In this document: positions 1 through 59,218 of the stretch, piece by piece
Numbering within the stretch: position 1 is the first letter of the stretch
How the letters are laid out: the number at the start of each line of letters is the position of its first letter
Assembly: GCA_001661245.1 (NCBI GenBank)
Contig: KV454014.1
Coordinates: 227,559 to 291,558 of the forward strand
Source of the DNA: Pachysolen tannophilus NRRL Y-2460
Taxonomy: Eukaryota
Length of the DNA stretch: 64,000 nt
Direction of reading: 5' to 3'
Notes under the pieces: model-generated
The model's input: the letters and a program-made list of their open reading frames with translations, nothing else
The model's database searches: none
Told to the model about the DNA's origin: nothing
Position numbers and translations under genes: made by a program

Positions 1-135
1 TTGGTGATTTTAGATTTCAATTCAATTACTAGTAGTCTATACTGAAAAGAACAGAAAATACAGTTCGCTAATGAGAGAAATTAATTTTCCATGATCATTT
101 TGGTTATTATTACCTTCAACTCTACTCATCATTAT

Positions 136-837
136 TCAAAAAAACTCTTCTCTTCTAAAGAAATCGCAATTTATCGAGTCCGTTTGTCCAATAAGTCTTT
201 CCCATTTGCATATGTCGAACTCCTCATAAAAAGTATACTCCATAAAATTACTCATATCAATTTCGCTAGCAAAAATATCTTCCATTCTTCCATTAGAAGA
301 AACACACTCATTTTCAGAGTTGATTTCCTCTTTGCCTTTACCGCCCAATATATTTAGTTCTTTATGCAACCATTCCACAAACGGGGTATTACTTGATTCC
401 TTGTTATACTGTGTTGCATAACGTTTCCATATGGTTTGATTTACGTCGTCCATGGACCAACTTTTAGCCAATATTGCAGATAGTTCAGTTTGCTGCGTGA
501 CATTGTTAATATTTTTGGTATAAAATGACCTGTACGCCATAAATCCGTTCATTTTTTTTTTCATTTTTTTCGCAACTTTACTTTGATGGATCTTGCCCTT
601 TTCCTTAGTGACGTACTTCGAAGCATAAACTTCCAACTTATCTTTTAAATTATCTGGAATTTTAGGAAGAGGGGGAAGTGAACTGAATGAAAAAAAATAT
701 TCCCGTGCCTGATTTTTTGCAGTTTGTTCAGATGCTCTTGATCCTTGTTCTTTATAAAATTTTTGTCTTTGCTTTTTGTTTTGAAATTTAGGTTTATTAA
801 TTCTGAATTGTGTAATACAGCGATTTGGAATTATCAT
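136..837 (-). CDS. MATalpha1: Mating-type protein alpha1 (alpha-box transcription factor)
   Basis: 233-aa ORF with alpha-box core KKMNGFMAYRSFY...QTELSAILAKSW...IWKRYATQYN; lies next to an alpha2 homeobox gene. Confidence 0.92.
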   Translation of the reverse strand: MIIPNRCITQFRINKPKFQNKKQRQKFYKEQGSRASEQTAKNQAREYFFSFSSLPPLPKIPDNLKDKLEVYASKYVTKEKGKIHQSKVAKKMKKKMNGFMAYRSFYTKNINNVTQQTELSAILAKSWSMDDVNQTIWKRYATQYNKESSNTPFVEWLHKELNILGGKGKEEINSENECVSSNGRMEDIFASEIDMSNFMEYTFYEEFDICKWERLIGQTDSINCDFFRREEFF

Positions 838-1174
838 TTTTTTTTAATTTAATTTGTATTATCGTTCAATACACCGAGATGAACCCTACCATGAACAATC
901 AGTGGATAAGATTTGTGTTTTATATGCTTGTAAAGCTTTTATATTTTGCAATTGGTACCGCACCTATATCCTGAAAATTGTACCTTACTGAAAATGAGAT
1001 TTTCACTAACTATTCAATGAACTATATTTCTGTGTCATCCTGATTCCTAAATATCTTATGAGGCTACAGCAAAAGTGTATATCATTTGTAATGTTCAAGG
1101 TATGCCGTAAAACCATTATGCATACATAGTAATGTGGCGCATTTTACATTATGCAAGTGTCTGCAGTAATTTAA

Positions 1175-1194
1175 TGATGTAGTGTTTTACTACT
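1175..1194 (-). promoter_or_regulatory. Possible a1-alpha2 operator in the MATalpha1 promoter
   Basis: Minus strand AGTAGTAAAACACTACATCA has GT-N7-TACATCA, as in the S. cerevisiae haploid-specific-gene operator (TCRYGTNNWNANNTACATCA), with mismatches in the left half. Confidence 0.3.
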
Positions 1195-1357
1195 CATCTT
1201 TATTGGATATATTTCAACTAATAACTAAATATTTACTCAATATAAACTCTCAAAAAATTTCAAAACATTTCTCAAAAACGTAGAAATAAAGTATCTGTAC
1301 CAATCACTACTTTCAGACTATATTTAAAAAGATTATGCATCAATCTTTTTTTTTAAG

Positions 1358-2431
1358 TTATTTCAAAAGATATGATAGCTCTTCTGAAATATTTACTACT
1401 TTTTCTTTTCTTCTATTGAAGCTGTTAGAATATTATGCTTTCTATAAATGTTTTGAATTTTTTAAAACTTACCTCTTGTTTGAAATCCTGTTGTGAAAAA
1501 GATTTTTCAGTTAGTACATATAGTTTTTTAAATTTTTCTTGGAAATGCTCACTTACCAGTTTCGAACTTGATTTTTGGTCAACCCTGTTCTTTCAACTAA
1601 TAAAGTCAATGTTTCCTCACTGAGATAAGGACTTTCTATGTTTTCTTCATACCTGTATTATATTATTTTTCGATTAGTAACGTCATTTCCTTTTGCAGTC
1701 GATATTCTGTTGCGTGTTTCTTCAAAATTAAATAAATAGATTACTTACCAAGTTTCTAATATCTGAACTAATGATTTAGGTAATCTACGACCTTTATTAG
1801 GTATCTTATCGCTACCAAATTCATTAATCATATTTTGAGTTATAACGTTAAACACCATTTCTTGTTTAGTGGAGGGCTCAGACTGGATGGAATTTTGATG
1901 TAATTTCTCGAAGTATGATTTTTTAAACCTGTTAGTTTCATTATGAAGTGATTCTTTTTCTTTTATCAATAAAACTATTGCCTTAGCTGATCTATTAATC
2001 TTTGAAAGCATCTTTTGTTCATTTTCGCCAAGTTGCGATTTCCATTTTAATAATCGTAAAATTTCCTGATCAATTTCATTAAATGTTAGTATGTGGCTAT
2101 CATCAATACTCCTCCCGATTCCAGATTTACTTACTTTGGATGCCCGTTGTGCTTCACTATTCATCCTTGCATAGTCGAAGATTCCTGAAGCAAAATATCT
2201 TCTTAAGGCATTGTGAAGAGAAATATTAATGAAGTTAAGTCTAAAACGTTTAGTTATGTTAATTACTTTTTCATAATCAAGCAGCCATCTATACAACATC
2301 CTGAATACTTACGAATTATATAATTCTTCGTTATCTTTTAATAACTTCTGATTTTGATTTTCAGGGGTTTCAACTAACAAAGAAGGAATCGAACACTTGT
2401 CGTATATCCTGTCGTTTCTTTGAGGGGCCAT
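1358..2431 (-). CDS. MATalpha2: Mating-type homeodomain protein alpha2; exons 2431-2313, 2240-1749, 1652-1557, 1487-1473, 1412-1358 (258 aa)
   Basis: Four GTAAGT...YAG introns with branch-like motifs (TAATTAAC, TACTAAT, TACTAAC, TTCTAAC). Splicing gives an N-terminal KCSIPSLL (like alpha2 KIPIKDLL) and homeodomain RRLPKSLVQILETWYEENIESPYL...TGLTKNQVRNWISNKRRKEKVVNISEELSYLLK, matching alpha2 WVSNRRRKEK...ELADLL. All exon phases are compatible. Confidence 0.9.
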
Positions 2432-5400
2432 TATTACGTTTTACAAAAAAGAAATAGGGGAGAAAACGTCTAAAAGAGATTATAAATTATTCAAGAAAAA
2501 AAAAAAAACAAGAGAATTTGAAAACTTCGAATAATATTCAGTTAAATTAATATAACTATATTGAAAAATCCTCTTTAAAATAGTTTCTTGAAGTTGGCTG
2601 AATATTTGAGCTATTTGGTCAACTCGATCTTAATATGTTTCTAAATCGGTTCACTTTGCGTTTCTAAATCGTCTTGCACGGGTAAGTTTCCATGCTGCAT
2701 TTAATGTGAGGAGATCTAAGAATTCGGAAAGGCGTGTATGAAACGCAAAAGAGAGAGAAACTCTTTTAAACAATATTTATACACGACCTTATGTCAAAAG
2801 CGAGTTAGTATCTTCGCGAAAAATTTTTGCTCCATTTTTTTTTGTCCGACCTCCATCAGTTCTAATTTCCTTCCTAATCAATTCGAGGTGTCTTCTCTGC
2901 TGAGGTTCACTTACCCTGACACTTAATCTTCTGAAACATTTGGTGAATCAAGAACAATGAAAATGCAGCAGATGAATGGTCTTGATAATATTCAGCACAG
3001 TTATCAATTGGTGATTCATTACCAAGTTTTTTTTCAATTCACTACTTCTAAGAAAGAATACCCATATTCAAAGCCATTTTTTTATTATTACTGAATGTCG
3101 TTGTAAAGTAAGTCATCATTCAATGGATATAAATGATATAATATCAATAATAAAATGTTGCTAGCTAGTTTCTTAAATAACTCGCTTAGTAATTCCTTAT
3201 GTAAGGATACGCGTTTTTGAATAAATGCACTACCGTCGTCTTTAACAGATCTTAAATACTGCATGACAAATAAAAGGTTCTCTGCATTATCGTGCATGCA
3301 TATAACACACATACTAAGATTAAAATGCATATTACGTTAAATTTTCTTGCACCGCTCCTGAAGCACCCAAACCCCAAAACAATTTATAACTAGCGAACAC
3401 CGTGCGTAGGTTGAGAGAGTTCATATTGCGAAGCAAAACTCTGGAAAAACTAATTAGTGGCTAAGATAATTCCCAGTATAAAGAAAACGTCATAAGGAAA
3501 TTATACATTTTATAGAGTTGAATAATGCATTCAACGAAATCAAATCCTTTACCGATTGTCTTAGCTATTTTGATGAACAGGGTGAGTTTCACAATTTCAT
3601 CTAAAAAACTATCAAATTGAGTTCGCTATTGAAGAAAATTTTGACTTCATACGTTTACTCTTAGTGTTTAAAGTATTGGATATATAAATCGGTGTTCCTA
3701 TCATTTATTTCTTTCTTAATTCTGTGTTGTTTGAAAGTAAGAGGAATACTTTATTCAGACCATTCTTGGATTAAAATAAATATTAGAGTAATAATAAAAA
3801 AAACTAAACAGAGACGTGAGACTTCTGTCTCAATCTGCGATAAAAAAAAATAAAAAAAAAAAGCTTTAACTAATATAGGATTCCTATATCATATAGTTTG
3901 TTCCCTCAATGGTAATCTGACTTGAAAAAGCACCCGCAAATTGAAACCGCTATCTTTTTAGTATCAACAAAATGAAGAGCATAATCGAAAAGAAGTAGCA
4001 ATTAAAAGTTTAGTGGAGAACATCCTAAATCGCTCCTTCGTTCCTCCTCTTTTCACATATTTATCTTTCAACAATATCAATGAATGGCTTATCTCTTTGA
4101 CTTGTACAGATGAGATAAAGAACAGACTAACGATTTCGCTCAAATAGATTGAGGCAAGAATTTTCAAAACGATGAATGTACCTGACCATTCTGCTGCTAA
4201 TCCAATCATTCATAACTCAACCATACAATGTGTTTTTCTAGAAAACCAACTTTTTAATCGAACCTTCTTCTATGGAAAATCTTTTTTCTTATGACTACAT
4301 CATTAACATTTTAATTTCCGCATTTATAACTATGAAAAGTGATACAGTGATCCTAAATCAACTATTTTTTCTAAACAAGGTAAAAGAAAAAGTCTTTAGC
4401 CTCTTTCAATTTTGATTTATGTGAACAAAGGTGCAAAATGTGTATCCAAATTTTCGTAGTGGTATATATATATAATGGATGCATTATTTCTCTCATATTG
4501 CGATACTTTAATTGTATGAATAATAGAAAAAAGTTATAGGCATGATGTGATGTATTAATTGTGCTTGAATTTGTTTTTAGACTTCAATTGTTGTTGGACA
4601 TTAAAAATAAGGCACGATGATACCTGAACAGCCAAAACTTGATATATCAAGTTCGGTTAAATCTTTAGATTTTTTTGTTTTTTTATTATGCACTATAAAA
4701 AAGTCATCACTGTTAAAAGTTGAATTTTTATATGAAATTATCAAAGTATAGGAGAATTGTATCTCATAAAAAGAATTGTTTTTCAAAATCTTATACTGCA
4801 CTGTCCACAATTAAGTATTAAATATCAAAGAAAATCTATAAATGGCATCTAATTTTTTTGCCGTAAGCGCATACACAACCGATGACTTTGAACATGATGT
4901 TGTTTTGAAAGTTAAAACTAAAAGTCTACGCAAATAGTATTGGATAACAGAAGATTATTGAGAACGATCTATATTCAAGAAAGAAAAATTAATTTTAAGG
5001 TTGTAACCTTTTTCCATTGTTACAAAACAGAGGTGAGGTGCTCACAGTTTTATGGTTGCGAAGTAATTGGAAATAAGAGGAGGATTATCTAGTAGTGAAT
5101 AACTTTTTTGGTCCGAACTAAGGATTGTCGTAAGAAGGGAGTTGTCGCTTTCGGCACCAAAGTTATTGAAAAATAGGTTGATTATCCAGCAAACATCTAA
5201 TACGTTTGGTAATTAAATATAGTGTAAGCTCTCAGAAACATTTGACACTTCGATAGCTCAATGCCTAAGGAAAAAATTTTTTTTGAGAAATTCTCATAAA
5301 AACTAAAGGAAAAGGTAAAAGAAAATACAGACAGACCATATTTTCGAAGATCTTTGATGAAATTACGATTTACAAAATATTACCGTTTGAAAAGATCATG

Positions 5401-6360
5401 AAAATGGTAGAGAAGTTAAATATTTTGTTTTGAATTCAACACTAACAGGTAACTGCAAAATATTTATGCTTAGTATCTGAAAAATTCAAAGAGTCAGAAT
5501 TAGAAAAGAAGCCATAAAAAATTCTGGAGCACGAGAGGAATATTTGTGTTTGACTTTAATGAGATTGAAATTATATATATATTTTTTTATATATTTTAAC
5601 TAGAAAAAAAAAAAGGATAAATAAATTATCGAGAAGATTTTAGTGAGAGAAGAGAAAAGAGAGCAATAGATAATTTTTTTGGTTTTCTATTTGTTACGTT
5701 ATTCAAGAAGTATTAGATAAAGTTAACTAAAAAGGATCAGTGGGATTAGTATTATTAAAAGTAATAGCTGAAACTGAATTTCAGGCGTGAAAGGTTCGTT
5801 ATAGCGGTGCTCAACATCATTATGGCATAGAATGCAACAGAAAATTTGAGAATGGATGAATAGAGGTAATTAAGCATCGCAAACAATTTAGCGAAATAAA
5901 TTCGTTTTTACTATCTACTTTGAATAAATTGTAGTATTGATATATTATATAGAAACTAAGAATTGAAAGCAAATTAATTTTTTTAGACCACAGAAAGCCA
6001 TTAACTTTTTATAAGAATTCAATAATGTACCATAGTTTAATAATTTTTGAAAATGTATCTCGCTTCTTAAATTATCGATTGCATATGTAGAATCTTTTTT
6101 GAGATTGTAGATCTACTATGCAGAAGAAAATGCTTAGTAGTGACTTTACTAGTAAATGACAGTTATGTGACTGTAGTGTCATTAATGTATGTCGTTAGTG
6201 TGCCGAAATCAATTTGACTTGACGTGCGCGAAAAAACAAAGTAGTTCCATGTATATCAAAAAACATATTGGGCATCACAACTGGAGCAGAGTATAGTGTG
6301 CAGAGTTATGGCAAAATCTATTCGAAAGGAATATGACATCGATATAGCAAATAATTGAAA
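2432..6360. other. ~3.9-kb spacer without recognisable genes between the MATalpha and MATa gene pairs
   Basis: Only short ORFs (81 aa or less) with no recognisable motifs. Contains a Reb1-like CGGGTAA (2679-2685) and TGAAAC motifs near the alpha2 promoter. Confidence 0.6.
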
Positions 6361-7285
6361 CTATAGCTCATGATTTGAATCAAGAAAGATATCTTCTGTA
6401 ATGATGTTGCATAGACTGGGATATATCCTAGATTCAAAGTCACTCTTTCTGCCTTTGGTAATGAACCTTCTGCTAGTGTGAAAATAGTGGTCTTTATCTG
6501 ACGACTTCAGCATACATAGTCCTTGTCTCGAAGCCTTTTTCACTCTCGGAGATATATTCAGATTTGATGAAAAGCGCATCCTAGCAAATTTTTTGGGGTT
6601 TCTGCCACTATCTGAGCTAGGAGAAGATAAGGTTTTGTAGGAAGAAGTACAAATGGTCGTGTAATGCACCTTAGTTGAAATGCTTTTGGAAATTTCCTTG
6701 ATGTCAGTCAGTAAATTTGGAGACACGGAGATAATACCCGAGCAATTACCTAATTTGGTACTTCTAAAAACTTCCGACTTTTTCGGTGAAAACATATAGG
6801 TGGGATGGTAAGATTGATGCCAAGCATCTTCGAGAAAAGCTAGATACTGGAAGTACATTTGAAAACATTCCTCACTTCTTCTCCAAATCTTTAAGTAAAC
6901 AAATAGAATGTTAATAATTGGGCCGATAATATTGATTACAATAATTTCTGTCTAAAAACTAAAAACATAAAAAACAAATACTTACAATTGAAGAAACTTT
7001 AGAAATATTGTCTGTAGTAACTTTGTTAAATTCTGATTTGAGGTACTTGCTCAAAATATTTCTCGAAATGATGAATTTATTTCTCGGTCTAGAAATAGAA
7101 CAACCTTTAGTATTAATTCGTGCTCGAGGACTACTCGAATCTATGAAGGAGCATGATTGATACTTTTTTTTTTGGCGACAATTGGTTGAAGCAGCTGGAA
7201 AACTGGTGGAGTCAAACAGATCAGATTCTGTTATATCATCAAATAGCAGCGAAAGCTGGAATTTGGATGAAGCTAAAATTTTCAT
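6361..7285 (-). CDS. MATa2: Mating-type HMG-box protein a2; exons 7285-6986 and 6888-6361 (~275 aa; start uncertain)
   Basis: HMG box split by intron 6985-6889 (GTAAGT...TATTAAC...AAG): ISRPRNKFIISRNILSK...ISKVSSI|IWRRSEECFQMYFQYLAFLEDAWHQSYHPTYMFSPKK; divergent from MATa1. Confidence 0.85.
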
Positions 7286-8029
7286 TTTTACAAAAGAAAA
7301 AATGGCACAAAATTGAACTATCACCAAAGCCCTCAAATACTTAAAAACTTAGTTATTACCGAAATAGCGAAATTGGTCATAATCATATTCAAAAAGGTTC
7401 AAATTCTCTGGGGGTGATATATACATATATATAATAAGACGGATGAATTTGGATTTGAAAGTATCATTGAATACAAAATTATCCAATACTGATTTAAAAC
7501 GACATTATGACATAGTGTATACGTACATAAATAACGTACATAAAGTATAAATAAAAATGAGATATAGCTGCATCCGTAGTTCACATAAGTTTAAGGAGCA
7601 GATAATGCATTTTTTTCGCAGCCTCAAAAACATAAATGAAAAGAAACTAAAATTTAAAACGAGCAAGGAAAACATGGAACAGATCAACTTTTAGAGTAAT
7701 ATTTTTAGCATCCAAAGAAAATAACTGCATCATGGTGCAGTCTGTAGGTACGATAAAGTAGCGACCTCAACAAAAAGAGAAAGTATGTATGATAAATAAG
7801 TATTCGCGATGTCGGATAGGAGATAGGGAGCCAATAAAACGTGACATGCCTAGTGAATAATGTAGTAAATTAAAACACTTACGATTGAATGTTTCATAGA
7901 CCTTAGAAAGAATATAACCATTAATCAAACTTCCGTTAACTTAAATATCATTTTATATAATACTGCGATTTGAAATTTACTTATAGAAGTTGAAATACAA
8001 TTTTTGTCTCCTTGTAAAAAAAAAAAGAA

Positions 8030-8803
8030 ATGGAAGACGATATTATTATTTCTGCAACAAAATCAAACCCTAATTGTTTGAATGAATTAAAAATGGCGTT
8101 TTCGTCTCTTGAAAATTTAGTCGAACAGACTAATGAGTTTAATGGAGGTGAAAGGACCGACAAAGGATCATACCCAGAAAATGAATACGGCTACAATTTG
8201 AAATACAGTAATGCAATTCCAGAAGAGTTAAAAGAGGCATTTGATGAACTTATTCAAATTTTTCAAAAATCTTTAGAAAGGACAGTTAAAGTAAGTATCC
8301 AAATAAGAACCAAAACTTTTGATAGCAGCACCCAACTAACAGATAATCAGGACTCCAATAATATGAATGAATTAAACAATGAAACAAGTTTTCTTGTTTC
8401 TCATTATTCATTATATAAATTATATGAGACAATGTTGAAAGAATCTTTTGATGAGATTATTAAATATTCTCAATCAGAAGACCCAGGTGATAAGTATCCA
8501 GTCATTTACAACTACAACATGAACTCATGTTGTTTTGAATCGGCAACAATTTCAGTTTCTAGCAATGCAACTATTAAAAACAACGTAGCAGCGCACACGC
8601 CTGAGTATGTGCATGTATCGGAGGTAAAGGAAAAAAAAAGGCGCACTTTTATCTCTAAAGAAACAAGGGATTTTCTTGAAACAGCATTTAAATTAAAGAG
8701 ATCACCTAATAGCAGAGAAAGAAAAATAATTGCAGAAAAGTGTGGATTAACTCCACTACAAGTAAGAGTTTGGTTTACAAATAAGAGGATGAGGTCAAAG
8801 TGA
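8030..8803 (+). CDS. MATa1: Mating-type homeodomain protein a1 (257 aa unspliced; 237 aa if in-frame intron 8291-8350 is removed)
   Basis: C-terminal homeodomain ISKETRDFLETAFKLKRSPNSRERKIIAEKCGLTPLQVRVWFTNKRMRSK closely matches S. cerevisiae a1 (...KCGITPLQVRVWFINKRMRSK). Confidence 0.95.
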   Translation: MEDDIIISATKSNPNCLNELKMAFSSLENLVEQTNEFNGGERTDKGSYPENEYGYNLKYSNAIPEELKEAFDELIQIFQKSLERTVKVSIQIRTKTFDSSTQLTDNQDSNNMNELNNETSFLVSHYSLYKLYETMLKESFDEIIKYSQSEDPGDKYPVIYNYNMNSCCFESATISVSSNATIKNNVAAHTPEYVHVSEVKEKKRRTFISKETRDFLETAFKLKRSPNSRERKIIAEKCGLTPLQVRVWFTNKRMRSK

Positions 8804-8994
8804 AGGAAATAAAATAAAATGTCTTACACGCCGAAAGTAACTTTTTAATGGTTGTAGCTTGACTCCACTAGCGACTATATATATATAGGTAGTAATCAAA
8901 CAATAAAAACAATTTTACTTGAAAACTCGTTCTTTTTTTTTTTCTTTTTTGATTTTAAATTCAAGGAAGCATAGTTTAGTAACATTACATGAGG

Positions 8995-11090
8995 TTATTC
9001 ATCATCGCTATCATCGCGGTAACTAAATTTTCTTATTTCGCCTAATCTTTTTCTTGCAGCATTTAAGGCATTCTCTAATTTCAAGATTTCTACTTGTTGC
9101 TCCATCTCGACAGTTTTATTTTCATGTAAACTAAGTTTCGAGTAATCAATTTCTTCAACACCACCATTGAGCCTTTTGTTTAATATATCTTGTACTTGAT
9201 TGACTAATGTCCTACAAGCAGAAGACACTGATTTGCTTGCCAATTCGAGACGGTCTTGAGTTTTTGAATTGAAGGTAGCTTTAACTCTAGAAGCGGCGAC
9301 TAACTGTGATGTCGAAGCAGCAACTTCGTTGGAAGAAACAATCAATTGTTCGTGTGAATTCTTACCTGATAAAACACCGTCAGCAGTTTGAATCAAAATA
9401 TTTGTAGACTCGGCAACAGATTTAGCAGCCGAAATCAAACCTTCGGTCCACCTATTGTGTTTTTTGTAGAAAGCAGTTCTCGAATTTGTACCCCTCCCCT
9501 GAGCAACAATTTCAGCCTGACAATCAATAGCAGCTTTGATCAACAATTGAATAGCATTCGTAACAGCAACAGCAGCGGCTAAAATAGCATTGTTTATCTC
9601 CAAGTCAATAGAAGAGAGTGAAGGATCTTTGGGTTTCTCAATTAAAGAAGTTAAATGAGCAGAAGCTGCTGCTATGGCGTCAGCAGCATTGGTCATCTCT
9701 TTATCAACCAAGTCACCTAAGTCCCCATTAGCTTTGTTTATGCGAGCCCTAGGAGCAAGTTTTTCAATTAAATCACTCAATTGCTGTAATTTTTCTTGAA
9801 CGTTCAAATTTCCTTCTATTACGGTATCTGTTTTGTCATCTTCAGACAATTTATTCAAGTTAGAGGATAATAGAGATTTAAAAAATTCTTCAGATAACTG
9901 AGCAGAAAACCTAGCATTGTTAACCAAATTATCAACCTCAGAGTCTGATTTTGCTAATCTAGTTATTCCCTTAGTATCTAATACAACGTCAGAAATCGAG
10001 GAAGCAAAATCCGATATGGTCTTAATGATTGAAGAATGATCACCGTTTGGACCATCAGCTATAAAATTATTAAAGCTAGTTGCAAAATCTGTAGCAGAAG
10101 TAGAAGCTTTTTCTATAACAGATAACATGTATTCTGGGGAAGAATTTTGGTTACCAGCTTGCATAGGGGAATCTAACTCATAAAGGGCATCTTGAATTCT
10201 CTGTACTCCGCTCTGCAAAATAGTATCTAGTAAATTTGTTAATCTCTCTAAGTTCTCAACTAATATCTGATCAATTTGCTCATCAATGGCACTATCTTTA
10301 TCTTTTTGTACAGCAGCTAGTTCTTTAATTGCATCGTCCATAGTTTGTTGCATGATTTCTAGTTCTTCATCTTTTTGCATTAGCTTTTCTTGTAAAGAGT
10401 TGTTTGACTCTGGTGATAATGAGTCAATTATATGCTGCTTTTCATTTAACTGCTTTGTTAATTCGTCAAGTTCTTTATTATGTTGTTGGAATATAGATGA
10501 AAGGTTTGATGATTGTGATCTTTCTGTTGTATCTAGTTTGTCTTTCAATTGTCTTAGTTCTGCTTCAAGTCTTTCAATTTCGTTGTTCTTACCACCTTTT
10601 AATCGGTCCAAGTCTAATCTTGCTCTATCTCTTTCTCTAATCAAATCTGCTAGTTCAATGTTTTTAGCCTTCAAGTCTTTCTCAAGTTTTTCTCTCTTAT
10701 CAATTGATTCCTGTGCACTTGCTGCCTTTTGTTGTACCTTCTTAAATTTTGCTAACAAGTTTAGGTGTTCTTGTCTGAGTTGTGAGTACAACTTGGCTAA
10801 CGATTCGTACTTGTTTTTCCACACATTCAACTGTTCCTGCAAATTGCTGATCAATTCATCTTTGGAAGCCAACTGTTGTTGTGCTGATTGTGTTGTGTTG
10901 TTTATTTCGTTTTCTAATGCTTTTACCCTTTGGTCATACTGTTCCAACATTAATTGGTCTTTCTCATACTGTCCTCTGATTGCTAACAAGTCTCTCTCTA
11001 ATTCCGCCACTCTTCCTTGGGATTGCCTCAGTAGTTGGTCTCTCACCAACTGTTCTTGGGCTTGTCTCTGGGCCTCTTCCTGCTGTTGAT
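8995..11090 (-). pseudogene. SLA2: 5'-truncated SLA2 copy (coiled coil plus I/LWEQ-THATCH domain, no ANTH domain); probable arm of the MAT inverted repeat
   Basis: Open frame with Sla2 motifs (WKNKYESLAKLYSQLRQEH; FYKKHNRWTEGLISAAK; EMEQQVEILKLE). The frame is closed by TAG at ~11110-11112, there is no native ATG, and there is no ANTH-coding sequence before the next gene at 12047. Confidence 0.85.
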
Positions 11091-11363
11091 GAAAAGTTTT
11101 TAAGTGTTCCTAACCTAAGAAAGGGGGTGATATATGTGCTCTTAACGTTATGCGGTATGTAGGATTATGCGATGAGTATCGCTTATGCAAGATTGTGGTG
11201 AAGTGCATAATGTTGCATTAGATAAATTTTAGTGGTTTTTTATGTAGATTTGAAATGAAATGGCGTTTTCATGATTTTAGTTCTATTTTTGATGTTTTGG
11301 TAGTTTTTGTTGTGGTAGTATTTAGTTTATAGGTTGTGGTGGGTGGGTGGGGGATGGTGGTGG

Positions 11364-11383
11364 CCGCGTTGAAAATTACATCA
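11364..11383 (+). promoter_or_regulatory. Candidate a1-alpha2 operator just outside the SLA2 fragment
   Basis: CCGCGTTGAAAATTACATCA fits the 20-bp consensus TCRYGTNNWNANNTACATCA with one mismatch. Confidence 0.4.
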
Positions 11384-12046
11384 ATTTTTCTAGTTTATGT
11401 TTGATTTTTATATATCTAGATTTTATTTCTCAATTTTTGTCCCCTGTTCGATTATTTTTGTGAAATGATGTCTATTTACAATCATTTTTGATAGATGGAG
11501 TAGCAAATAAATTTGTATTTTGTGCTGTGAAAGAGGTTGTGGTTAGTGTAATTTGTTTGCGCCAGTGGGATTCGTCTCTGAGGAATGTTACTGTTAATTT
11601 ACATGTTCTTTCCAAATTTTCACACGGAACATCGCTTTAGTAGGGATTGTTGATTGATATCTATATCTCAAACCAGCACAAATTGAAGGCCATAATTGTA
11701 TAGCAAAGTTTTGGCACACTCTCTTGATGGTGAACGTTGAACGTTACGATAATTGGTCACTGTAATTTGAAGTTTTTGAGGCAACTTTCTTATTGAGGTT
11801 ATACGTGTCAGTAATTAACGCTATACTGTTTTTTGTCGTGCAGTTTCTAGTTGACAGAAATGTCACAGCATCCGAAACAAATTTAAGAAATAATTAATTT
11901 TATTTTTTATTTTTTTACGGATTCTTCGCGAAAGAGCTGACATCTTATTCATTGGTGAGGAAAGATTTTCCAAATAGTAAGTAGTACCTAGCTAGTATAC
12001 AATTAACTTGGAATAAATGATACACATAATTATGTATATAAAATAA

Positions 12047-13681
12047 ATGTTTGCATTGCTAAGGAGAAATTTATTTGGGAAATCAATAATTTACAAGATT
12101 TATCATCGAAGTAAATATACTTTGAATGAAAATGGACTGACTGTTAACAAATTTCAGTTGCCGACCTCATATGAAGATTTTATAAAATATGTTAGATCTA
12201 ACCCTGGAGCATTTTTTCCTTATTCAGTTTATTCTAATATTTTAAATAATCATTTGATTAATTTGGACAAGAAGAAGCTAAATGTTTTGAGGGAATTTAT
12301 CGAAGTATTCAAAAATGATAAGAGATTATCTTCTGTCGAGTTACTGGATTTACATAATTTGGTAATCACCAGGTTTACTAATATTGATTATTCAGTAGCT
12401 ACAATGGCAAGTTTGGAGCTTAAAAAATTAGTTAAAGATCATGAAAATCACACAAATCTACGATTAATGAAGCCAACGTTAAGATCATTGATTGAAATTA
12501 TTAAGTATAATCCGGGCAGAGTTTCGTCATCCTGGGAAATATTTTCAAAGGAAATCGATAAAGATGATCAAATTTTGTCAGAGTTGGCAAATAAAAATAA
12601 GTTGCAAAATGAATTAGTAACTTTAATAATTGAGAAATTATTATATGGCGATTTTTGTGAAAAAGAAGATAAATTTAAGATCGATGCCAAAAATTTATCG
12701 AGAATAGAATATTTAATACATAAATATAATCGTACTCAAGTTTTATCCGAAAATTTACAATTAGACTTGGTTAAGGCTTGTATTGATTTGAAGTCTATTC
12801 CTATTATTAAATCAATGAAAATATCTTCAAGCATTTTAGGTAAAATTTTACTAGATGATACCGTTACTTTATCGGATGATGAGTTTATTTCTATTTTTTC
12901 CATATATTTTCAATTGGAAAAATCATTTGTTAACTATGAATTGTTGTTTAAGGTCTTGCCGAAATTGGCTCTGCTGTCATCGGAAGCATCAACTCGAAAA
13001 AGTATTCAGAAAGAAAAAACTCAAATTATTTTCAATGAGGTTCAAGAAATGATCAAAAAATTGAAGTTAGATTCAGGGACTTCATATGATTCTGCAACTC
13101 TAAGGCAGATTTATATCCATTCATTAGGAATAGAGAATAATAATTTAAAAAAATCTTTAGAGATATTTCACCATTACCAGGCCACACAGAATTCTAATCT
13201 TAGCCAATTACACTTAACTATATCATTGGTATTTTGTTACCACTCGTGTCTTAAAAAAGACATCCATTTGATAAAGGCTGCAGAAGCTTTGCTACCAGGA
13301 GACATAATGTCAATTAAAAATATTCAAGCTTTTATATTAACATATGCTTTCAATTGTCAGCCTGAAAAATCTTTGGAAATTTATAATAGTTATATTAAGG
13401 ATATTTCCACTGAAAATAATGAACAATATCAAGTTTCTCCAGCTGCTTTATTAACAGAAAGTTTGATCTTGGGTTATTTATATAACTTAGATAGAGAATT
13501 TGCTTATTTAGTGAATGATGGCGCTTTGACCAATAAAATTGTCGAAGGACCAACAGCAATCAACAGAATAAAAAAGTTATTCAAGTTATATGGAGATGCT
13601 TTTGAAGAAGAAGACCCAGAGAAAGCCAAGGAAATCATTGGGTTGCTGTTGTTGAAAAACTTCAAGATAGGAGAACACTAA
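12047..13681 (+). CDS. Uncharacterised protein, probably mitochondrial and helical-repeat-like
   Basis: 544-aa ORF; basic N-terminus without acidic residues (MFALLRRNLFGKSIIYKIYHRSKY) resembles a presequence; no family recognised. Confidence 0.7.
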   Translation: MFALLRRNLFGKSIIYKIYHRSKYTLNENGLTVNKFQLPTSYEDFIKYVRSNPGAFFPYSVYSNILNNHLINLDKKKLNVLREFIEVFKNDKRLSSVELLDLHNLVITRFTNIDYSVATMASLELKKLVKDHENHTNLRLMKPTLRSLIEIIKYNPGRVSSSWEIFSKEIDKDDQILSELANKNKLQNELVTLIIEKLLYGDFCEKEDKFKIDAKNLSRIEYLIHKYNRTQVLSENLQLDLVKACIDLKSIPIIKSMKISSSILGKILLDDTVTLSDDEFISIFSIYFQLEKSFVNYELLFKVLPKLALLSSEASTRKSIQKEKTQIIFNEVQEMIKKLKLDSGTSYDSATLRQIYIHSLGIENNNLKKSLEIFHHYQATQNSNLSQLHLTISLVFCYHSCLKKDIHLIKAAEALLPGDIMSIKNIQAFILTYAFNCQPEKSLEIYNSYIKDISTENNEQYQVSPAALLTESLILGYLYNLDREFAYLVNDGALTNKIVEGPTAINRIKKLFKLYGDAFEEEDPEKAKEIIGLLLLKNFKIGEH

Positions 13682-13851
13682 CTATAAAACTTCAACTTAT
13701 CAAATAGTGGCTGGTAAAAGTGGTCAACAATTCAAAATTGGACATTTATAATGAACTAAGCCTTATTATTCCTTTTTAAGAAGGATTTTTTCACGAGTGT
13801 GGCTATACAACGGAAATATCAAAAAAAAAAAAAATTTTTAAAAATTTTTTT

Positions 13852-14256
13852 NNNNNNNNNNNNNNNNNNNNNNNNNNNNNNNNNNNNNNNNNNNNNNNNN
13901 NNNNNNNNNNNNNNNNNNNNNNNNNNNNNNNNNNNNNNNNNNNNNNNNNNNNNNNNNNNNNNNNNNNNNNNNNNNNNNNNNNNNNNNNNNNNNNNNNNNN
14001 NNNNNNNNNNNNNNNNNNNNNNNNNNNNNNNNNNNNNNNNNNNNNNNNNNNNNNNNNNNNNNNNNNNNNNNNNNNNNNNNNNNNNNNNNNNNNNNNNNNN
14101 NNNNNNNNNNNNNNNNNNNNNNNNNNNNNNNNNNNNNNNNNNNNNNNNNNNNNNNNNNNNNNNNNNNNNNNNNNNNNNNNNNNNNNNNNNNNNNNNNNNN
14201 NNNNNNNNNNNNNNNNNNNNNNNNNNNNNNNNNNNNNNNNNNNNNNNNNNNNNNNN
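13852..14256. other. Assembly gap (405 N) flanked by long A/T homopolymers
   Basis: Run of N in the sequence. Confidence 0.99.
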
Positions 14257-14460: not shown

Positions 14461-15063
14461 ATGGCAAGTAATATAACATGGCATCCAAATCTTTCCTATG
14501 AGGAGCGTAGGGCTTTGAGAAAACAGTCTGGAGCAACTGTTTGGTTAACAGGTTTAAGTGCGTCAGGTAAAAGTACTATTGCATGTGCCTTGGAGCAATT
14601 CTTACTCCAAAAAGGTATCTCAGTTTATAGACTTGATGGTGACAATATCAGATTTGGTTTAAATAAAGATTTGGGATTTTCTGAGACGGACAGAAATGAA
14701 AATATTCGTCGTATTTCTGAAGTTGCAAAATTGTTTTCTGATTCATGTTCTATTGCAGTTACCTCTTTTATTTCTCCATATAAAATTGATAGAGATAGAG
14801 CTAGAGAATTACACAAGGAAGCAAACTTACCATTTGTTGAAGTATTTATCGATGTTCCAGTTGAAGTTGCTGAACAAAGAGATCCAAAGGGGTTGTATAA
14901 GAAAGCTAGAGAAGGAATTATTAAAAATTTCACTGGTATATCTGCTCCTTATGAAGCACCAGAAAATCCAGAGTTACATTTGAAAACAGATGAATTAACT
15001 GTTGAAGAAAGTGCACAGAAAATTGTTGATTACTTGGTTAAAGAAGGATTAGTTTTTTTCTAG
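14461..15063 (+). CDS. MET14: Adenylyl-sulfate (APS) kinase
   Basis: MASNITWH...[16 protein letters not shown]-loop, [40 protein letters not shown]. Confidence 0.97.
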
Positions 15064-37984: not shown

Positions 37985-40900
37985 TTATGCATTAATTACA
38001 GCAATAGGAACAGCTTCAATTTGTGATTTCTGTGATGCATTTCTTTTGACTCTATAATATTGATCAGTAAATTGAGCAGCATTCATATTACTCAAGAATT
38101 TTTCATCATGTGTTATAACAATTAATTGGAAATTTTTCTGTTTTTTCCTCAATTCAATTATATTATTTAATGCTCTTGCTAAACTTTCAATATTATCCTC
38201 GTCTAAATTAGTTGTTGGTTCATCTAAGGCAATCATACCACAATTAATACCAAAGCATTCAGCTAATGCTAATCTAATGATTATACTTGCCAAAACTTTT
38301 TGCCCCGCAGAACATCTTCCTCTCATATCTAACTCAACTCCTTGCTTAACCATGACTACTCTGTAATTATATGACCTATTACCTGATTTAACATTCGAAG
38401 AATTACTTTCAGATTTGATTAAAATATTATCAACATCTGTACCACTATAAGTTGTTTTCCACAACTCATCAATAATTCTATTAATTTCTTGCATCTTAAC
38501 AGAATGATATTTCATAACCGCATTATCTAATGCCTTCGAATATACGCTTAAATCATTACTTAGGAAAAACTTAGTTTGTAATTTTATATATTCTTTTTCA
38601 TATTTTTCATCTACTTTGTTATAATCTCTTTTTAATTCATTTCGAAGATTCTCAATCTGTATAGTTAACTGAGTAATTTCTCCATTTTTACCTGAATGTT
38701 GAGCTTGTAAATCAGAATATAATTTTTGCAAACGGGATGCTTCCTGCGTGTATTTATTTCTTTCACTTTCTGTATTTTGTAAAGTTAATTCTGCAGTTTC
38801 TTGCTTAACAGATTCTAAATCAACTTGTAAATTTCTGAAATCAATATTATCTCTTATATTTCTTAGTTCCTGATCGGCAACATTTACTGATTTATCTATA
38901 TCAATAATTTCTGAACTCAAGGTTTCTATTTGAGATTCCAATTCCTTAATTTTTGATTCTATACTTTTCAAATCTTGCTCACATTTCTCTAATTTCGGTG
39001 AATCATTTCCTAGATAATTATTAATGATATCATTTAATTCATTAAATCGAGTACTGATATTAGATAAATAATCAACTTTTGCCTTCTGCTCCAACTCTTT
39101 TTCTTCATTTCTCTTCTTCAATTCCTTAAATTTTTCAACCATGATATTATACTTTTGAGCCAAATCTTCTGTCATAGATCTAGTCTTTGAGATGTTGTTT
39201 TCTAAAGATTTCAATTTCAGCTCATTTTCTTGAATACTTTTCTTCAAATTTACCTTTTCAGACAAATTCTTTTCTAATTCTCCTATTCTTAACCTTTTAT
39301 CCTTTATGGTTGTTTCTAATTTTGTTAATTCCCTTGTAATAATTTCCTTTGTCTGTGTCAAATGTGATAATTCTTGTCTTTTAACTTTCATTGCACTTGA
39401 GCTTTTATTTTGTAAAATTTGTAATTCATTAATAGAGTGATTTGATGCGCCAAATTCAGTTAATTCATTTTGTATAGCTGATAATTGGCCTTTATATGAT
39501 TCCAATTCCTTATTCAATCTCGTTAAATCGGCAACAATTTTGAAAAACGATTCAACAGCATAAATTTCTGATTCCAAATTTTCTAAAGATTTTAATTGTT
39601 CATCAGCTCTCTTTTTCGCTGAATCATAATCTGCATTCAAAACATTTAATTTTAAATTAGCTTCATTTATTTCAACATTTTCCAAACTTCTAATTCTAAG
39701 AATATCAGGTCCAAGTGCTCTTGCATACTCCAAATCTTCTTTGATTCTATCAAATTCTTCTTTTGCATTTTGCTGAGACCTGGGACTTATGGATTCACGT
39801 AATAAATCCAAAAAAGTTGATAACTCTCCATTTTTAAATGTTCTGCGACACAATACACAATGTTTTTCCTTTTCTGCTATAGCTAATGCATTCATATTGA
39901 ACCTTATTGTTGTATCATTAAAATTTAGATTCTCCAAGGCAATTTTATAATTTTTCTCTAAATCATCTATAGTATCTTCATAATCTGATATTTCAAAATC
40001 TTCTTGCATCATTTCTTCCACTTTTTGTTTTTTCAATTTTAATTCATTTCCTAGAATTGAAATTTGATCTTTTAAGCTTTCCCTGTCTCTATCAAGTTGA
40101 TACGTCTTTAAATTATATTGCTCATAAATATTTTGTTCTTTTTTATAAACTTCTTTTAAAGATAATAGGCGATTGCTGCAATCTTTTTCACAAGTTTCAA
40201 TATTTAAATCTATACCAACTTTCTCTTTAAATGCTTTCCCATTTGCGTCAATTATAGATTTAATGATATTTTCATTTTGATGAATATTTTGTTTAATTAT
40301 GCTGGATTTAGCTAAAGTTTCACTTTGTCTGCTGCTTACGGAAATTTGATTTGTAATTTCTTCGAGTTCTTTTTCCAAACAAATGATTTCTTCATTTTTA
40401 AGATGAATTTCTGATGTTATTTTAGCTAATTCATTTTCTTGTTTTTTTTTTCAAATTTTTGTACCATAACTTTTAATTCTTCTTGTTCAATTCCTAGTTG
40501 ACTTTCATCAGATTGAATCATTCTAATTTTAAAATTTAAAGAATCATTTTCCTTGTGATAATTTTTTAAATCAGTTTCATAATACTGTAAATGTTGTTCT
40601 TCTTTCATTTTGCTATCTCTAATCATAGTTAAATTAGATTCATATTCTTGGATTTGGAAATTATTATCATCTATTATTTCTTTTAATTTTTTTTCATTAG
40701 TTATTAATTTTTTCATTATTTTATCTTTAAATTCTAATATTACTTTATCATCTTCAATATTATGAATTGATAAATCTAAGTTTTCATAATTTTCTTTTAT
40801 AATTTGAAATCTCTTCTCTATATTTAATTTATAATTCTCAAATAATGCTCTTAATTGACCTTCAATTCTAATATTTGTACTATATGAAGCTCTAACAACG

Positions 40901-41904
40901 TTTAATTCATCTGTTTTTAATTTAATTATCAGTCTTTTATTTTCAATTGCTGTTTTCTTTTCATTTAATATTTCATTAAAATTAATTAATTTATTTTGTA
41001 AATCTTCAATTGTATTAGGTAATGGTATTAATGATTGTTTTATTCTTTGAATTTGAGAATTTAAAGTAATTTGTTGATTTTTTAAAAAATCAATTCTATT
41101 AATAACTTTTTCATAATCTTGGTTTGATTTAAATAATTTATCCATTTGTTGAGTTATATCTTTTAATTCTAAAGAAATTTTCCCAATTTCTAATTTATAT
41201 TCATCAACAGTTTTGATTAATTGTTCCATTTCAAATTTTTTCAGATTTGCTCTTTTCCTATCTTCTTTTAAATGTTTAACGTTATTATGTAATAATTTAA
41301 TATCAATATCAAATTGTTTTCTAATATCTTTAAAATTATCCAATACTTTAATAAATTTAACAGAATCAAAAATTTCATCAAATCTTTTTTTCAAAATTGA
41401 AGGTTCACTTATAGGCCATGAACTATCTTCTTGATGACAAAATATAACGTAATTTAAAATCAGTTTAGAAACTCCCAAATTTTGTGGTATTAAACTATCA
41501 ACCTCAGCAGCTTTAGAACTAATAGTTGTCCTTTCACCATGATTTAAAACATACAATTGATTCTCCAAAGTCTTAAACGTTGATTGAGATTTCCCCTTTG
41601 AAATCAATTGTAAAGTCCTTGTTAATACCATCGTCTTATTATTAACATTCTTAAAAGCCAACTTAATCTGAGCCCTCACATCCCTCTCACCAGCAATATT
41701 AGGATCATGAATAAAAGCTCCTCCTTTAGAATTCGGCGGCAAATCCCCAGTCGCAGCATATTTTAAACATTCGATGATCGTAGTCTTACCAGATCCATTT
41801 GCTCCAACAATCAACGTCAATGGCTTATTGAACTGAATCGTCTCCACTTCACCAGGATCAAAAGACCTAATACCAGAAATCGACAACTTATAAATACTCG
41901 ACAT
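37985..41904 (-). CDS. RAD50: MRX complex ATPase Rad50; one-base frameshift in A-run at 40442-40451 (probable assembly error)
   Basis: Walker A GANGSGKTT, VIFCHQEDS, zinc hook CVLC, signature MRGRCSAGQKV, Walker B ALDEPTTNLD, ITHD. Adding one A joins the two ORFs. Confidence 0.95.
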
Positions 41905-55200: not shown

Positions 55201-55526
55201 ATTTAACAGGTTTAACATATATGGATGTCATTGAAAATATTAATACATGTATAATTAGATCATATCCTAAAAAATTTCAAAGAGGAAAATATTTAAAAGA
55301 ATTAGAAATTGAATTTCCTCATATTATGAAATATTTTAGACAAAGACGTAAACTTGTTAAAATATGGCGTGGTTTGGCAAATTCCCACGAATCAAAGAAA
55401 AGAATTATTAAAGATGAAAATTATGAAGAAACTTCAAGAAAGATGTTACTCAGGAAGAGACGTTTAGCTATGAGAAATGACAGAAATTATTACCAAGTAA
55501 TACGTGATACACCATTAAATAATTAG
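52251..55526 (+). CDS. PET309: Mitochondrial PPR protein Pet309 (COX1 translational activator); true start uncertain
   Basis: Multiple PPR repeats (PNLKHYGIVMHALAERGEVKAVDTLWEQLISRKIIPS; VIHYNAMMKSL...MIDNNIEPNFKSY); lies between FYV7 and SPC3 as YLR067C does. Confidence 0.85.
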   Translation: MSVKIAYESYMNFMNLQKHQRLISWHLAASINNYGSNIIRTSSMIPLLVRSDNNNGRLKQMVKFMKLFKRMFITTNVNYFQNNYVMLNNEITSTKSPFLSLSEFSTIPPLKNNKISFAIKNRLKDLTDEIEINLTEKYFKLMQKFDDNFKVTGIDKKIYRELYYLNSQTKGKSLAYQKIMTTTRPSLINLLHLDDRFETAELAYNLLKKRSRGKSLTPDNVIKESVQANILLRTKRFEELDKFVILLIDNQQDPIRITKMTRGLINCALAYLKDPELALKIFINYGLRSYGHLNFTSYIQYKNPLRCFDPIYHEFKNSDELKKFLKNFQEKHLDLLTPHHYSCLISTIMGFSYKYQKTKEILTLWKFKIDQHLTLIPRDLTCTLTALLYSKRYQDALELYEKNHLLHADDQFDSLLLIHGKLNDWQKMQQQFEALFGRGELPNLKHYGIVMHALAERGEVKAVDTLWEQLISRKIIPSSYILIALMKAKIYYKDYKAAVGWFQKFSDYSIERPCESYRLLFEALYGLDDLKTQLKVLSHLVKEKKEDLPLTVFYPIVKSCEKIGDINSAKYVIEIIKNEYGHEINDEIHEHVANTFVNAHLYEDARNYIYEIERNLPQQRQLAMKLYNVLMNSYIKEQNYELVARIMDSINEKKKVLNQEAYAYLLITLICSNKLEQAESLLQNITKGKFEKIECTVIHYNAMMKSLIHMKNYNKAIEIYDTMIDNNIEPNFKSYKYLIDSLIRRSKNIGDREKDLSLAIKVIDTLQENKIKDQLPTPVANLSINLIFDLVNTVVDYSTKNARFILEKYEEYSVDRSRIEEDYRYIYLLLRINAIESNWSRFNQLFDLYIEKISKYFHEDPVTEVKTRSAPIQIKTSLQKIWIYKLEELLESNKISIVLQLFNDLKEKGFIFNNKNINDTAKYLTTFDDTLKDGLRLIESKLIQGYIHLRNKRRFFKLLKQKSDEVKDYHIPYLLTKKYDPKFYLTGLTYMDVIENINTCIIRSYPKKFQRGKYLKELEIEFPHIMKYFRQRRKLVKIWRGLANSHESKKRIIKDENYEETSRKMLLRKRRLAMRNDRNYYQVIRDTPLNN

Positions 55527-55629
55527 ACAAAAGATATTATTTCTTGTATATAAAGAAGAAGAAAAAAAAACCCACTTTAGATAGATTGTATACTAGTATA
55601 TAAAATGTATAAAACATTACTTGACTATA

Positions 55630-56172: not shown

Positions 56173-56366
56173 CCTAAAAACCTTCTTACTCAATCAATCA
56201 ATCAATCAATTAAATAAATGAATATAAATTATTTAAATATCATCATCATCATCAACTTCTTCTTCGTTTATAAATTTTTGTATTTGATTTTTTTTACACA
56301 GAAAATTTTATTTACTTGGAAATTTTAATGAAAAGTTTGTATTTAAAATCATTTTTATAATTACAA

Positions 56367-59182: not shown

Positions 59183-59185
<3 letters not shown>

Positions 59186-59215: not shown

Positions 59216-59218
<3 letters not shown>

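What the first reader, a model, noticed from the sequence alone, without database searches (positions are those of the whole stretch)
136..11090. Both mating types in one ~9-kb cassette bounded by a truncated SLA2: flip/flop (inversion) mating-type switch
Seen: alpha1, alpha2, a2 and a1 all look intact within 8.7 kb, with alpha genes at one end and a genes at the other. A 2.1-kb SLA2 3' fragment points into the cassette; it lacks a promoter, ATG and ANTH domain yet has no stop codons. Known: Ogataea polymorpha switches mating type by inverting a segment between ~2-kb SLA2-derived inverted repeats, and inversion switching has been reported for Pachysolen. Inference: full-length SLA2 lies on the + strand just left of position 1 and forms the other arm, and recombination keeps the fragment open. 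How one end is repressed in such a compact cassette is not evident from this window.
Basis: partly seen in the sequence, partly recalled or inferred. Interest (0 to 1): 0.85.

Follow-up and report, generated by a model that had tools for sequence, protein, structure and literature searches.

The report
Known yeast flip/flop mating-type switch
This is the already published invertible mating-type locus of a budding yeast matching Pachysolen tannophilus; the new lead is that the chromosome's centromere may sit inside the flipping piece, which could help explain how one mating type is kept off.

Summary
Confirmed and already known. Four MAT genes (alpha1, alpha2, a2, a1) lie in an 8,985-bp segment bounded by a 2,103-bp SLA2 repeat (8986-11088). 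The left arm is missing from the assembly (4,380 N), but public-run contigs join the repeat to the SLA2 5' half in 4 of 4 runs laid and, by a 30-letter overlap in one run, to position 1 in inverted orientation. Gene order equals the published Pachysolen tannophilus FF1 map (PMC6692504 supplement), where starvation-induced inversion is reported and silencing is called unclear. Inversion itself was not testable here. New lead: the scaffold runs telomere to telomere and MAT is 227 kb from the nearer end, so telomeric silencing is unlikely. The 4-kb alpha2-a2 spacer is the only one of 28 long gene-free intervals (65% of the chromosome read) with raised GC, few A/T runs and a C-to-G skew flip, like three unproven centromere candidates on other chromosomes. 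MET14, neighbour of an ancestral centromere, lies 3.4 kb beyond the right arm. Centromere in the spacer: about 0.55; alone it cannot give asymmetry. No earlier scan note on this locus was shown; the lead came from notes on other chromosomes.

The parts
1..8985 (.). Invertible segment between the two SLA2 repeat arms; position 1 abuts the inner end of the left arm, which lies outside the window
   Evidence: run X1 record 1 covers 1-3835 and continues past position 1 into 30 letters matching 8986-9015 on the opposite strand
136..837 (-). MATalpha1, 233 aa
   Evidence: Pfam PF04769 E 4e-13
1358..2299 (-). MATalpha2; exons 2299-1749 (possible further intron 2134-2066), 1652-1557, 1487-1473, 1412-1358
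   Evidence: open spliced model; Homeobox_KN E 7e-5 for the middle exon; best PDB match Mat alpha2 E 0.03
2309..6360 (.). 4,052-bp unique non-coding spacer; candidate regional centromere (inferred); cumulative GC-skew minimum at 4376
   Evidence: single copy in G000; GC 0.301, 2.0 A/T runs per kb, skew -0.06 to +0.22; 4-mer score like other candidates
6361..7285 (-). MATa2 (HMG box), exons 7285-6986 and 6888-6361, 275 aa
   Evidence: open spliced model; score 79 against own Rox1-like HMG box, 0 of 5000 shuffles; position equals a2 in the published map; other searches blank
7286..8029 (.). Divergent a2/a1 intergenic region
   Evidence: sequence; gene models
8030..8803 (+). MATa1, 257 aa (possible in-frame 60-nt intron 8291-8350)
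   Evidence: Pfam Homeodomain E 9e-15; PDB MATa1 E 1.5e-17
8986..11088 (-). Right arm of the inverted repeat: 2,103 bp, SLA2 codons 353-1049, stop codon and 9 further bases
   Evidence: one contig or contig part 8986-11088 in runs X1, X2, X4 (two pieces in X5), loose end into C49 at 11088; I/LWEQ; C49 plus arm gives an open 1,049-codon frame
11089..12046 (.). Non-coding right flank where the SLA2 5' half would be; GC 0.326, no A/T run of 8 or more, GC skew +0.31
12047..13681 (+). Flanking gene at the place of YJR003C in the published map (name taken from the map, not shown by my search)
14461..15063 (+). MET14 (APS kinase), neighbour of ancestral centromere Anc_CEN2 in Zygosaccharomyces
   Evidence: Pfam PF01583 E 5e-71; PMC5433688 passage

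Best explanation
A one-repeat flip/flop (FF1) mating-type switch. A haploid chromosome carries both idiomorphs back to back in an 8,985-bp segment between two inverted 2,103-bp copies of the SLA2 3' end; the left copy belongs to the full-length gene, the right copy has no 5' half (architecture: shown, left arm from contigs of public runs). Homologous recombination between the arms inverts the segment and swaps which gene pair lies beside full-length SLA2 (inversion on nitrogen depletion: published for P. tannophilus, not tested here; recombination route inferred from O. polymorpha). For the open step, silencing, I commit to this (inferred): the chromosome's regional centromere lies in the 4-kb spacer (about 0.55), and its silent chromatin extends towards the untranscribed truncated arm while SLA2 transcription keeps the other side open, so the pair next to full-length SLA2 is expressed, here the alpha genes (about 0.35). 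The confidence below is for the FF1 switch, not for the silencing step.
For: Four MAT genes with open models. Repeat joined to the SLA2 5' half in 4 of 4 runs laid, from at most 2 samples, one possibly the source of this DNA; joined to position 1 in X1; contig depth 404 against 186 and 168 in X1 and 308/253 against 114 in X5, which fits two copies though the tool warns depth is no copy number; no letter differences listed. C49 plus arm is an open 1,049-codon SLA2. Gene order NVJ2-CWC25-SUI1-SLA2-alpha1-alpha2-4 kb-a2-a1-SLA2 fragment-YJR003C-MET14 equals Data S2B of PMC6692504; the database's own translation of a flanking gene has Ala at 5 of 5 CTG codons. Synonymous GC3 in SLA2 is 18/338 outside and 199/686 inside the repeat (p 3e-21), while 20 of 20 other long ORFs differ by 0.10 or less between first third and rest, which fits long exchange with an arm in a different mutational setting. 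Centromere step: telomere repeats at both scaffold ends; spacer is 1 of 28 long ORF-free intervals with all three features; skew halves differ by 0.28, 0 of 1000 block shuffles; 4-mer score 0.027 against 0.025-0.032 for three candidates left out in turn and negative for 14 of 15 other long intergenic regions; MET14 neighbourhood; Hi-C precedent of a centromere between a and alpha genes in Barnettozyma californica (PMC12711049); in O. polymorpha the MAT next to SLA2-SUI1 is the active one (PMC4238957 abstract).
Against: The left arm is not in the assembly and its junction to position 1 rests on 30 letters in one run, below the tool's bridging rule. Contigs broken at a 2.1-kb repeat cannot show orientation. 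For the centromere step: the three comparison regions are themselves unproven; a subtelomeric region scores as high (0.024), so the signature may mark untranscribed DNA rather than centromeres; the spacer (4.05 kb) is shorter than the others (6.6-9.9 kb) and its skew V is half as deep (62 against 115-134; 10 of 1000 shuffles reach it); 35% of the chromosome was not read, so a gene-free region of 4-5 kb could be hidden; the two strong dynamin matches (VPS1/DNM1 type) are on C3 and C7, so the MET14-VPS1 adjacency is not kept; the MAT bin is not among the top 8 25-kb bins for GC3; the skew minimum (4376) is almost at the segment centre (4493), 2.08 kb from alpha2 and 1.99 kb from a2, so a centromere there cannot by itself tell the two sides apart. 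The GC3 change point (codons 298-334) falls about 20-55 codons short of the repeat edge at 352.
Confidence: 0.95

Rival explanations
1. Same inversion switch, but silencing comes from SLA2 transcription and not from a centromere: the repeat ends 9 bases after the SLA2 stop codon, so the SLA2 3' UTR is supplied by the invertible segment and runs head-on into alpha1 (stop 135 bases inside) or a1 (182 bases inside); read-through or antisense RNA would set which pair is on. The confidence is for this silencing step.
For: Repeat edge at 8986 and stop at 8995-8997; convergent layout at both ends.
Against: a2, the likely a-type activator (established for several Saccharomycotina, recalled), lies behind a1, 1.7 kb from the edge; it does not explain the spacer's composition. 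No RNA data were available.
Confidence: 0.25
2. The segment inverts but neither pair is silenced by position; cells express both sets and behave as primary homothallics, the inversion being a by-product of the repeat.
For: [quoted passage not shown]
Against: Inversion is reported as induced by nitrogen depletion, as in O. polymorpha where it changes mating type; the arms show no listed differences and an open frame.
Confidence: 0.12
3. No switch: a primary homothallic contiguous locus with a single SLA2 remnant, or two alleles of a diploid merged by the assembler.
For: Only one SLA2 3' copy is readable in G000; the a side (about 5600-8960) was not covered by the contig pieces listed.
Against: No N between 1 and 13851; the repeat has two different outer continuations, C49 in the runs and 11089 onward in the assembly, and two inner ones; alpha side depth 186 against 168 for the right flank in X1; published FF1 status for the same gene order.
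Confidence: 0.03

Closest known systems
Pachysolen tannophilus FF1 MAT locus (Riley et al. 2016, not read; as described in Krassowski et al. 2019, PMC6692504: passages, reference list part 1, supplement text of Data S2B)
   Same: Identical gene order NVJ2-CWC25-SUI1-SLA2-alpha1-alpha2-4 kb-a2-a1-SLA2 fragment-YJR003C-MET14, 2-kb repeats, CUG read as Ala. Very probably the same locus.
   Different: The paper gives 8 kb for the invertible region; I measure 8,985 bp and arms of 2,103 bp. The passages seen name no silencer; the centromere reading is mine.
Ogataea polymorpha FF1 switch (PMC4238957 and PMC5720833, passages and abstract)
   Same: One 2-kb inverted repeat containing a truncated SLA2; both idiomorphs inside; nitrogen-depletion trigger; MAT beside SLA2-SUI1 active.
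   Different: 19-kb segment with other genes; repeat also holds a truncated a1; centromere lies outside one arm; independent origin according to PMC6692504. Here only the four MAT genes invert, the repeat stops 9 bases after the SLA2 stop, and no Ty1/copia-type RT was found in G000 (control did not ring).
Barnettozyma californica CEN2 at MAT (PMC12711049, passages)
   Same: Centromere mapped by Hi-C in a 2.8-kb intergenic region between a and alpha genes, proposed to control one set.
   Different: That species is classed as primary homothallic without flanking repeats; here the centromere is only inferred and would lie inside an invertible segment.
Candida albicans regional centromeres with GC-skew reversal (Koren et al. 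2010, PMC2924309, passages)
   Same: Unique sequence, raised GC, skew from C-rich to G-rich.
   Different: There the AT skew runs opposite to the GC skew; in the spacer the AT skew is weak and of the same sign. No Cse4 data here.

Membership tests
FF1 flip/flop mating-type switch | MATa and MATalpha genes at non-allelic positions of one chromosome | tested here: met
   a2 identity weaker than the other three
FF1 flip/flop mating-type switch | One inverted repeat flanking the MAT genes | tested here: met
   (junctions, depth); left arm not in the assembly, inner left junction from 30 letters in one run
FF1 flip/flop mating-type switch | Truncated gene copy in the repeat with an open frame | tested here: met
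   697 open SLA2 codons without ANTH
FF1 flip/flop mating-type switch | Segment found in both orientations, inducible | not testable with these tools
   contigs break at the repeat; reported for P. tannophilus in PMC6692504 citing Riley 2016
FF1 flip/flop mating-type switch | One set repressed by a centromere or telomere | tested here: inconclusive
   telomeres 227 kb and 1.2 Mb away; centromere candidate inside the segment; no expression data
FF2 flip/flop switch (Komagataella type) | [quoted passage not shown] | tested here: not met
   no inner repeat longer than 34 bases in 1-13800
Three-locus MAT-HML-HMR system | Silent cassettes elsewhere sharing X and Z repeats | tested here: inconclusive
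   SLA2 arm and spacer each give one match in G000; the MAT genes themselves were not searched genome-wide
Small regional (Candida-type) centromere | Unique gene-free region of several kb with raised GC and C-to-G skew reversal | tested here: met
   smaller and weaker than three comparison candidates
Small regional (Candida-type) centromere | Only one such region per chromosome | tested here: inconclusive
   1 of 28 long ORF-free intervals in 944,660 of 1,446,495 bases read
Small regional (Candida-type) centromere | Cse4/CENP-A binding or Hi-C centromere clustering | not testable with these tools
   no such data; paper search for tannophilus + centromeres + Hi-C gave 0 papers

The most novel reading that the evidence does not exclude
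The chromosome's centromere lies in the middle of the 9-kb invertible mating-type segment, so each switch flips the centromere itself. Because it is equidistant from both gene pairs, asymmetry is set from outside: centromeric chromatin spreads or slides towards the untranscribed SLA2 arm and silences whichever pair lies there, while SLA2 transcription bounds it on the other side. Mating type would then be written in the position of a movable CENP-A domain. Centromere in the spacer alone: about 0.55; the whole mechanism: the probability given here.
Probability: 0.3. Interest if true: 0.7.

Novelty: already known. Interest (0 to 1): 0.38.

Why it matters
The switch is published, so confirming it adds only exact edges (arms 2,103 bp, segment 8,985 bp) and gene models. 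What could matter is the silencing step, which the 2019 survey calls unclear for this species: telomeres are far away, and sequence features point to a centromere inside the flipping segment. That turns a stated open question into one experiment (Cse4 ChIP-seq and RNA-seq in locked orientations). If it holds, it is a compact natural case of a centromere that is inverted on a nutrient signal and whose chromatin position sets cell type. Riley 2016, Hanson and Wolfe 2017 and the Wolfe and Butler reviews could not be read (the 2017 Annual Review was not asked for), so the idea may already be in print.

Tried and rejected
Search of G000 for a second SLA2 3' copy: one match only, explained by the N run. 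No RNA holder listed among public runs: no evidence on expression either way. About 5600-8960 and 11089-11340 were not covered by the contig pieces shown (23 pieces and 15 loose ends not shown; records are filtered): no finding. a2 identity searches that stayed blank: Pfam, PDB, homologue search with exon 2, five-sequence HMM; the representative search with exon 1 gave 2 hits, one a repeat-like chance match and one unnamed 115-aa protein similar over the HMG start, without Pfam family. A 13-base motif shared by 7410-7422 and 11123-11135 occurs only twice in the genome but 21 of 300 shuffles give as good a match: not significant. No Rfam match in 1-13800, no tRNA in the window, no long inner repeats, no clear sequence similarity between the spacer and three other candidate centromeres (best E 0.026). 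Ty1/copia RT as a centromere marker: 0 matches, control silent, uninformative. CUG test by PDB alignment: Ala in the 3 RAD50 alignments shown, uninformative for MEF1 (Phe) and DIC1. Rival centromere candidate C4:1310570-1315092: GC 0.29, 2.9 runs per kb, but skew negative on both halves, 1,044 N, a 109-codon frame inside and 4-mer score -0.015: less likely, not excluded. My first reading that raised GC argues against a centromere was dropped after the other candidates proved GC-raised too. PMC12711049 does not mention this species, MET14 or YJR003C in text or its 3 text supplements; its gene maps are figures I could not see. PMC2199205 passage did not state the MET14-CEN11 distance.
Full report
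Observation. The window is G000:C4:227559-291558 of a 12.6-Mb, 197-contig yeast assembly. alpha1 (837-136) matches MATalpha_HMGbox at E 4e-13 and a1 (8030-8803) a homeodomain whose best solved relative is MATa1 at E 1.5e-17. alpha2 (2299-1358) opens after removal of three GTAAGT introns with branch points, plus one optional in-frame intron; its middle exon's best PDB match is Mat alpha2 at E 0.03. a2 (7285-6361) gives 275 aa with one intron ending in AAG. It aligns over a whole HMG box with the genome's Rox1-like protein (score 79, 0 of 5000 shuffles; the two unspliced frames score 48 and 44), whereas Pfam, PDB, a small HMM and a homologue search did not identify it. The SLA2 piece is 697 open codons with the I/LWEQ domain and no ANTH domain. 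An internal in-frame ATG at 10950 exists.

The missing left arm. G000 holds one readable SLA2 3' copy, and 4,380 N lie directly left of position 1, preceded by CWC25 and an NVJ2-type PH/SMP gene. The SLA2 5' half (352 codons, ANTH E 4e-81) is the unplaced 1,616-bp contig C49 and SUI1 the 928-bp contig C99; with one repeat arm they sum to 4,647 bp. I laid 4 of the 5 public runs that hold the region (7 listed; at most 2 samples and 2 studies; one may be the source of this DNA). In 4 of 4, sequence at 11088 continues into the first letters of C49, by about 1.6 kb in two runs. Depth over 8986-11088 is 404 against 186 (alpha side) and 168 (right flank) in X1, and 308/253 against 114 in X5; the tool cautions that this is no copy number. 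C49 plus the arm reads as an open 1,049-codon SLA2. So the arms are 2,103 bp and the segment between them 8,985 bp. Contigs cannot show orientation.

What it is. The supplement of Krassowski et al. 2019 (PMC6692504; I saw passages, the outline, part 1 of the references and supplement text) draws for Pachysolen tannophilus the order NVJ2, CWC25, SUI1, SLA2, alpha1, alpha2, 4 kb, a2, a1, SLA2 fragment, YJR003C, MET14 with 2-kb repeats, the order found here. The text classes it as FF1, reports that Riley et al. 2016 induced inversion by nitrogen depletion, and says the silencing is unclear. The database's own translation of the gene at 12047 has Ala at 5 of 5 CTG codons and a RAD50 CTG aligns to Ala in the 3 alignments shown, fitting the CUG-Ala clade. 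Riley 2016, Hanson and Wolfe 2017 and a Wolfe and Butler review were not held.

Footprint of the repeat. Synonymous GC3 of SLA2 is 18/338 in the single-copy part and 199/686 in the repeat (Fisher p 3e-21); 20 of 20 other long ORFs in 164 kb differ by at most 0.10 between first third and rest. The best change point is codon 304 (298-334), short of the present edge at 352. Inference: the truncated arm sits in a setting that gains G+C and long exchange has carried this into the expressed copy; GC-biased conversion or an introgressed allele would also fit. The raised GC continues to the right (flank 0.326, next gene GC3 0.25) and stops on the left at the SLA2 5' part (0.05; but SUI1 0.29 on 75 codons).

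The silencing question. C4 has telomere repeats at both ends and MAT is 227 kb from the nearer one. Earlier scan notes, unchecked AI notes, place six candidate centromeres on other pieces and none was shown for this one. I fetched three of the six (beside RER1, URM1, RRP6): 6.6-9.9 kb, GC 0.29-0.30, 1.6-2.4 A/T runs of 8 or more per kb, GC skew negative then positive, the pattern described for Candida albicans centromeres (PMC2924309 passages). The alpha2-a2 spacer has GC 0.301, 2.0 runs per kb and skew -0.06 then +0.22 (0 of 1000 block shuffles for the difference of halves; 10 of 1000 for the depth of the V), against a median of GC 0.26 and 5.6 runs per kb in 104 ORF-free intervals of C4. I read 944,660 of 1,446,495 bases of C4 (5.3 of every 9.2 kb, 164 kb around the window, 10 filled gaps). 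Of 28 ORF-free intervals with 1.8 kb seen or a possible span of 5.5 kb, 4 pass GC 0.28 and 3 runs per kb, thresholds chosen after seeing the candidates: two subtelomeric, one at 1.31 Mb with one-sided skew, and the spacer, the only one with the flip. A 4-mer model from the three candidates scores the spacer 0.027 (candidates left out in turn 0.025-0.032; 14 of 15 other long intergenic regions negative; the subtelomeric one 0.024). MET14, which flanks ancestral centromere Anc_CEN2 (PMC5433688 passage), is 3.4 kb beyond the right arm; MRT4- and UFD4-like genes follow, which I recall as near CEN11 in S. cerevisiae, as YJR003C is near CEN10 (recalled). Genes that flank MAT in relatives (SPC3, a PPR gene like PET309, a DIC1-like carrier, a sugar transporter) lie 41-50 kb to the right, so a rearrangement seems to have put centromere-linked genes beside MAT (inference). 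A Hi-C-mapped centromere between a and alpha genes is known in Barnettozyma californica (PMC12711049 passages).

Limits. The comparison regions are unproven, the signature is shared by subtelomeric DNA, the spacer is shorter and its skew weaker, 35% of the chromosome is unread with 5 possible 5.5-5.9-kb and 18 possible 4.5-5.5-kb intervals still holding an unread part, the MET14-VPS1 adjacency is not kept, and the MAT bin is not among the top 8 GC3 bins. The skew minimum at 4376 is nearly central (4493), about 2 kb from alpha2 and from a2, so a centromere there flips with the segment and needs an outside cue. Two cues are visible: transcription of full-length SLA2 from the left, whose 3' UTR must come from the segment because the repeat ends 9 bases after the stop, and an apparently promoter-poor truncated arm and flank on the right. 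By analogy with O. polymorpha, where the MAT beside SLA2-SUI1 is active (PMC4238957 abstract), this assembly would be in the alpha-on orientation (inference).

Is the centromere idea in print? Searches for tannophilus with MAT, inversion, SLA2 (3 papers), with centromere and mating type, with centromeres and Hi-C and with invertible region or centromere (11 listed) were seen as listings. In the three of these whose passages on this species I read (PMC6692504, PMC5499181, PMC5720833) no centromere is placed at this locus. The key primary paper, its supplement and three reviews were not seen.

Verdict. Observation confirmed, interpretation supported, system already known. Interest 0.38: low for the switch, raised by a testable lead on its unexplained silencing step.

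Noticed in passing
window 8998-11088 with L012 1-1056: Sharp step in synonymous GC3 within SLA2, 0.05 outside and 0.29 inside the repeat, highest (0.45-0.50) in the first 100 codons of the arm; change point slightly outside the present edge.
   Followed up: partly
window 8986-8997: The repeat ends 9 bases after the SLA2 stop, so SLA2 gets a different 3' UTR in each orientation.
   Followed up: partly
window 7410-7422 and 11123-11135: A 13-base G-rich/TATA-like motif occurs only at these two places in the genome; 21 of 300 shuffles match it.
   Followed up: yes
window 1358-1749, 2066-2134, 6889-6985, 8291-8350: alpha2 has three introns inside its homeodomain region including a 15-base exon; alpha2 and a1 each have an in-frame intron candidate; the a2 intron needs an AAG acceptor.
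   Followed up: partly
window 52251-61219: PPR gene, SPC3, WD40 gene, DIC1-like carrier and sugar transporter, the kind of genes that flank MAT in relatives, lie 41-50 kb right of the cassette.
   Followed up: partly
window 37985-41904: RAD50 appears as two long ORFs (492 and 675 aa) with about 400 bases between; intron, frameshift or assembly error not examined.
   Followed up: no
window 61941-63589: A CTF18-like gene is split into two overlapping frames at 63209 (name recalled).
   Followed up: no
L034 1-120 and L173 end (G000:C4 ends): A 9-base telomeric repeat at both scaffold ends; subtelomeric non-coding DNA shares the raised GC and lack of A/T runs.
   Followed up: partly
L019 and L020 (G000:C43 and C1): Two HMG-box matches with the same score, one on a 1.7-kb unplaced contig: possible duplicate or assembly redundancy.
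   Followed up: no
L181-L159 (G000:C4:1310570-1315092): 4.5-kb gene-poor stretch with raised GC and one-sided negative skew, two N runs; second-best centromere candidate on this chromosome.
   Followed up: partly
window 13852-14256: 405-base N run between the YJR003C-place gene and MET14, flanked by T and A homopolymers.
   Followed up: no
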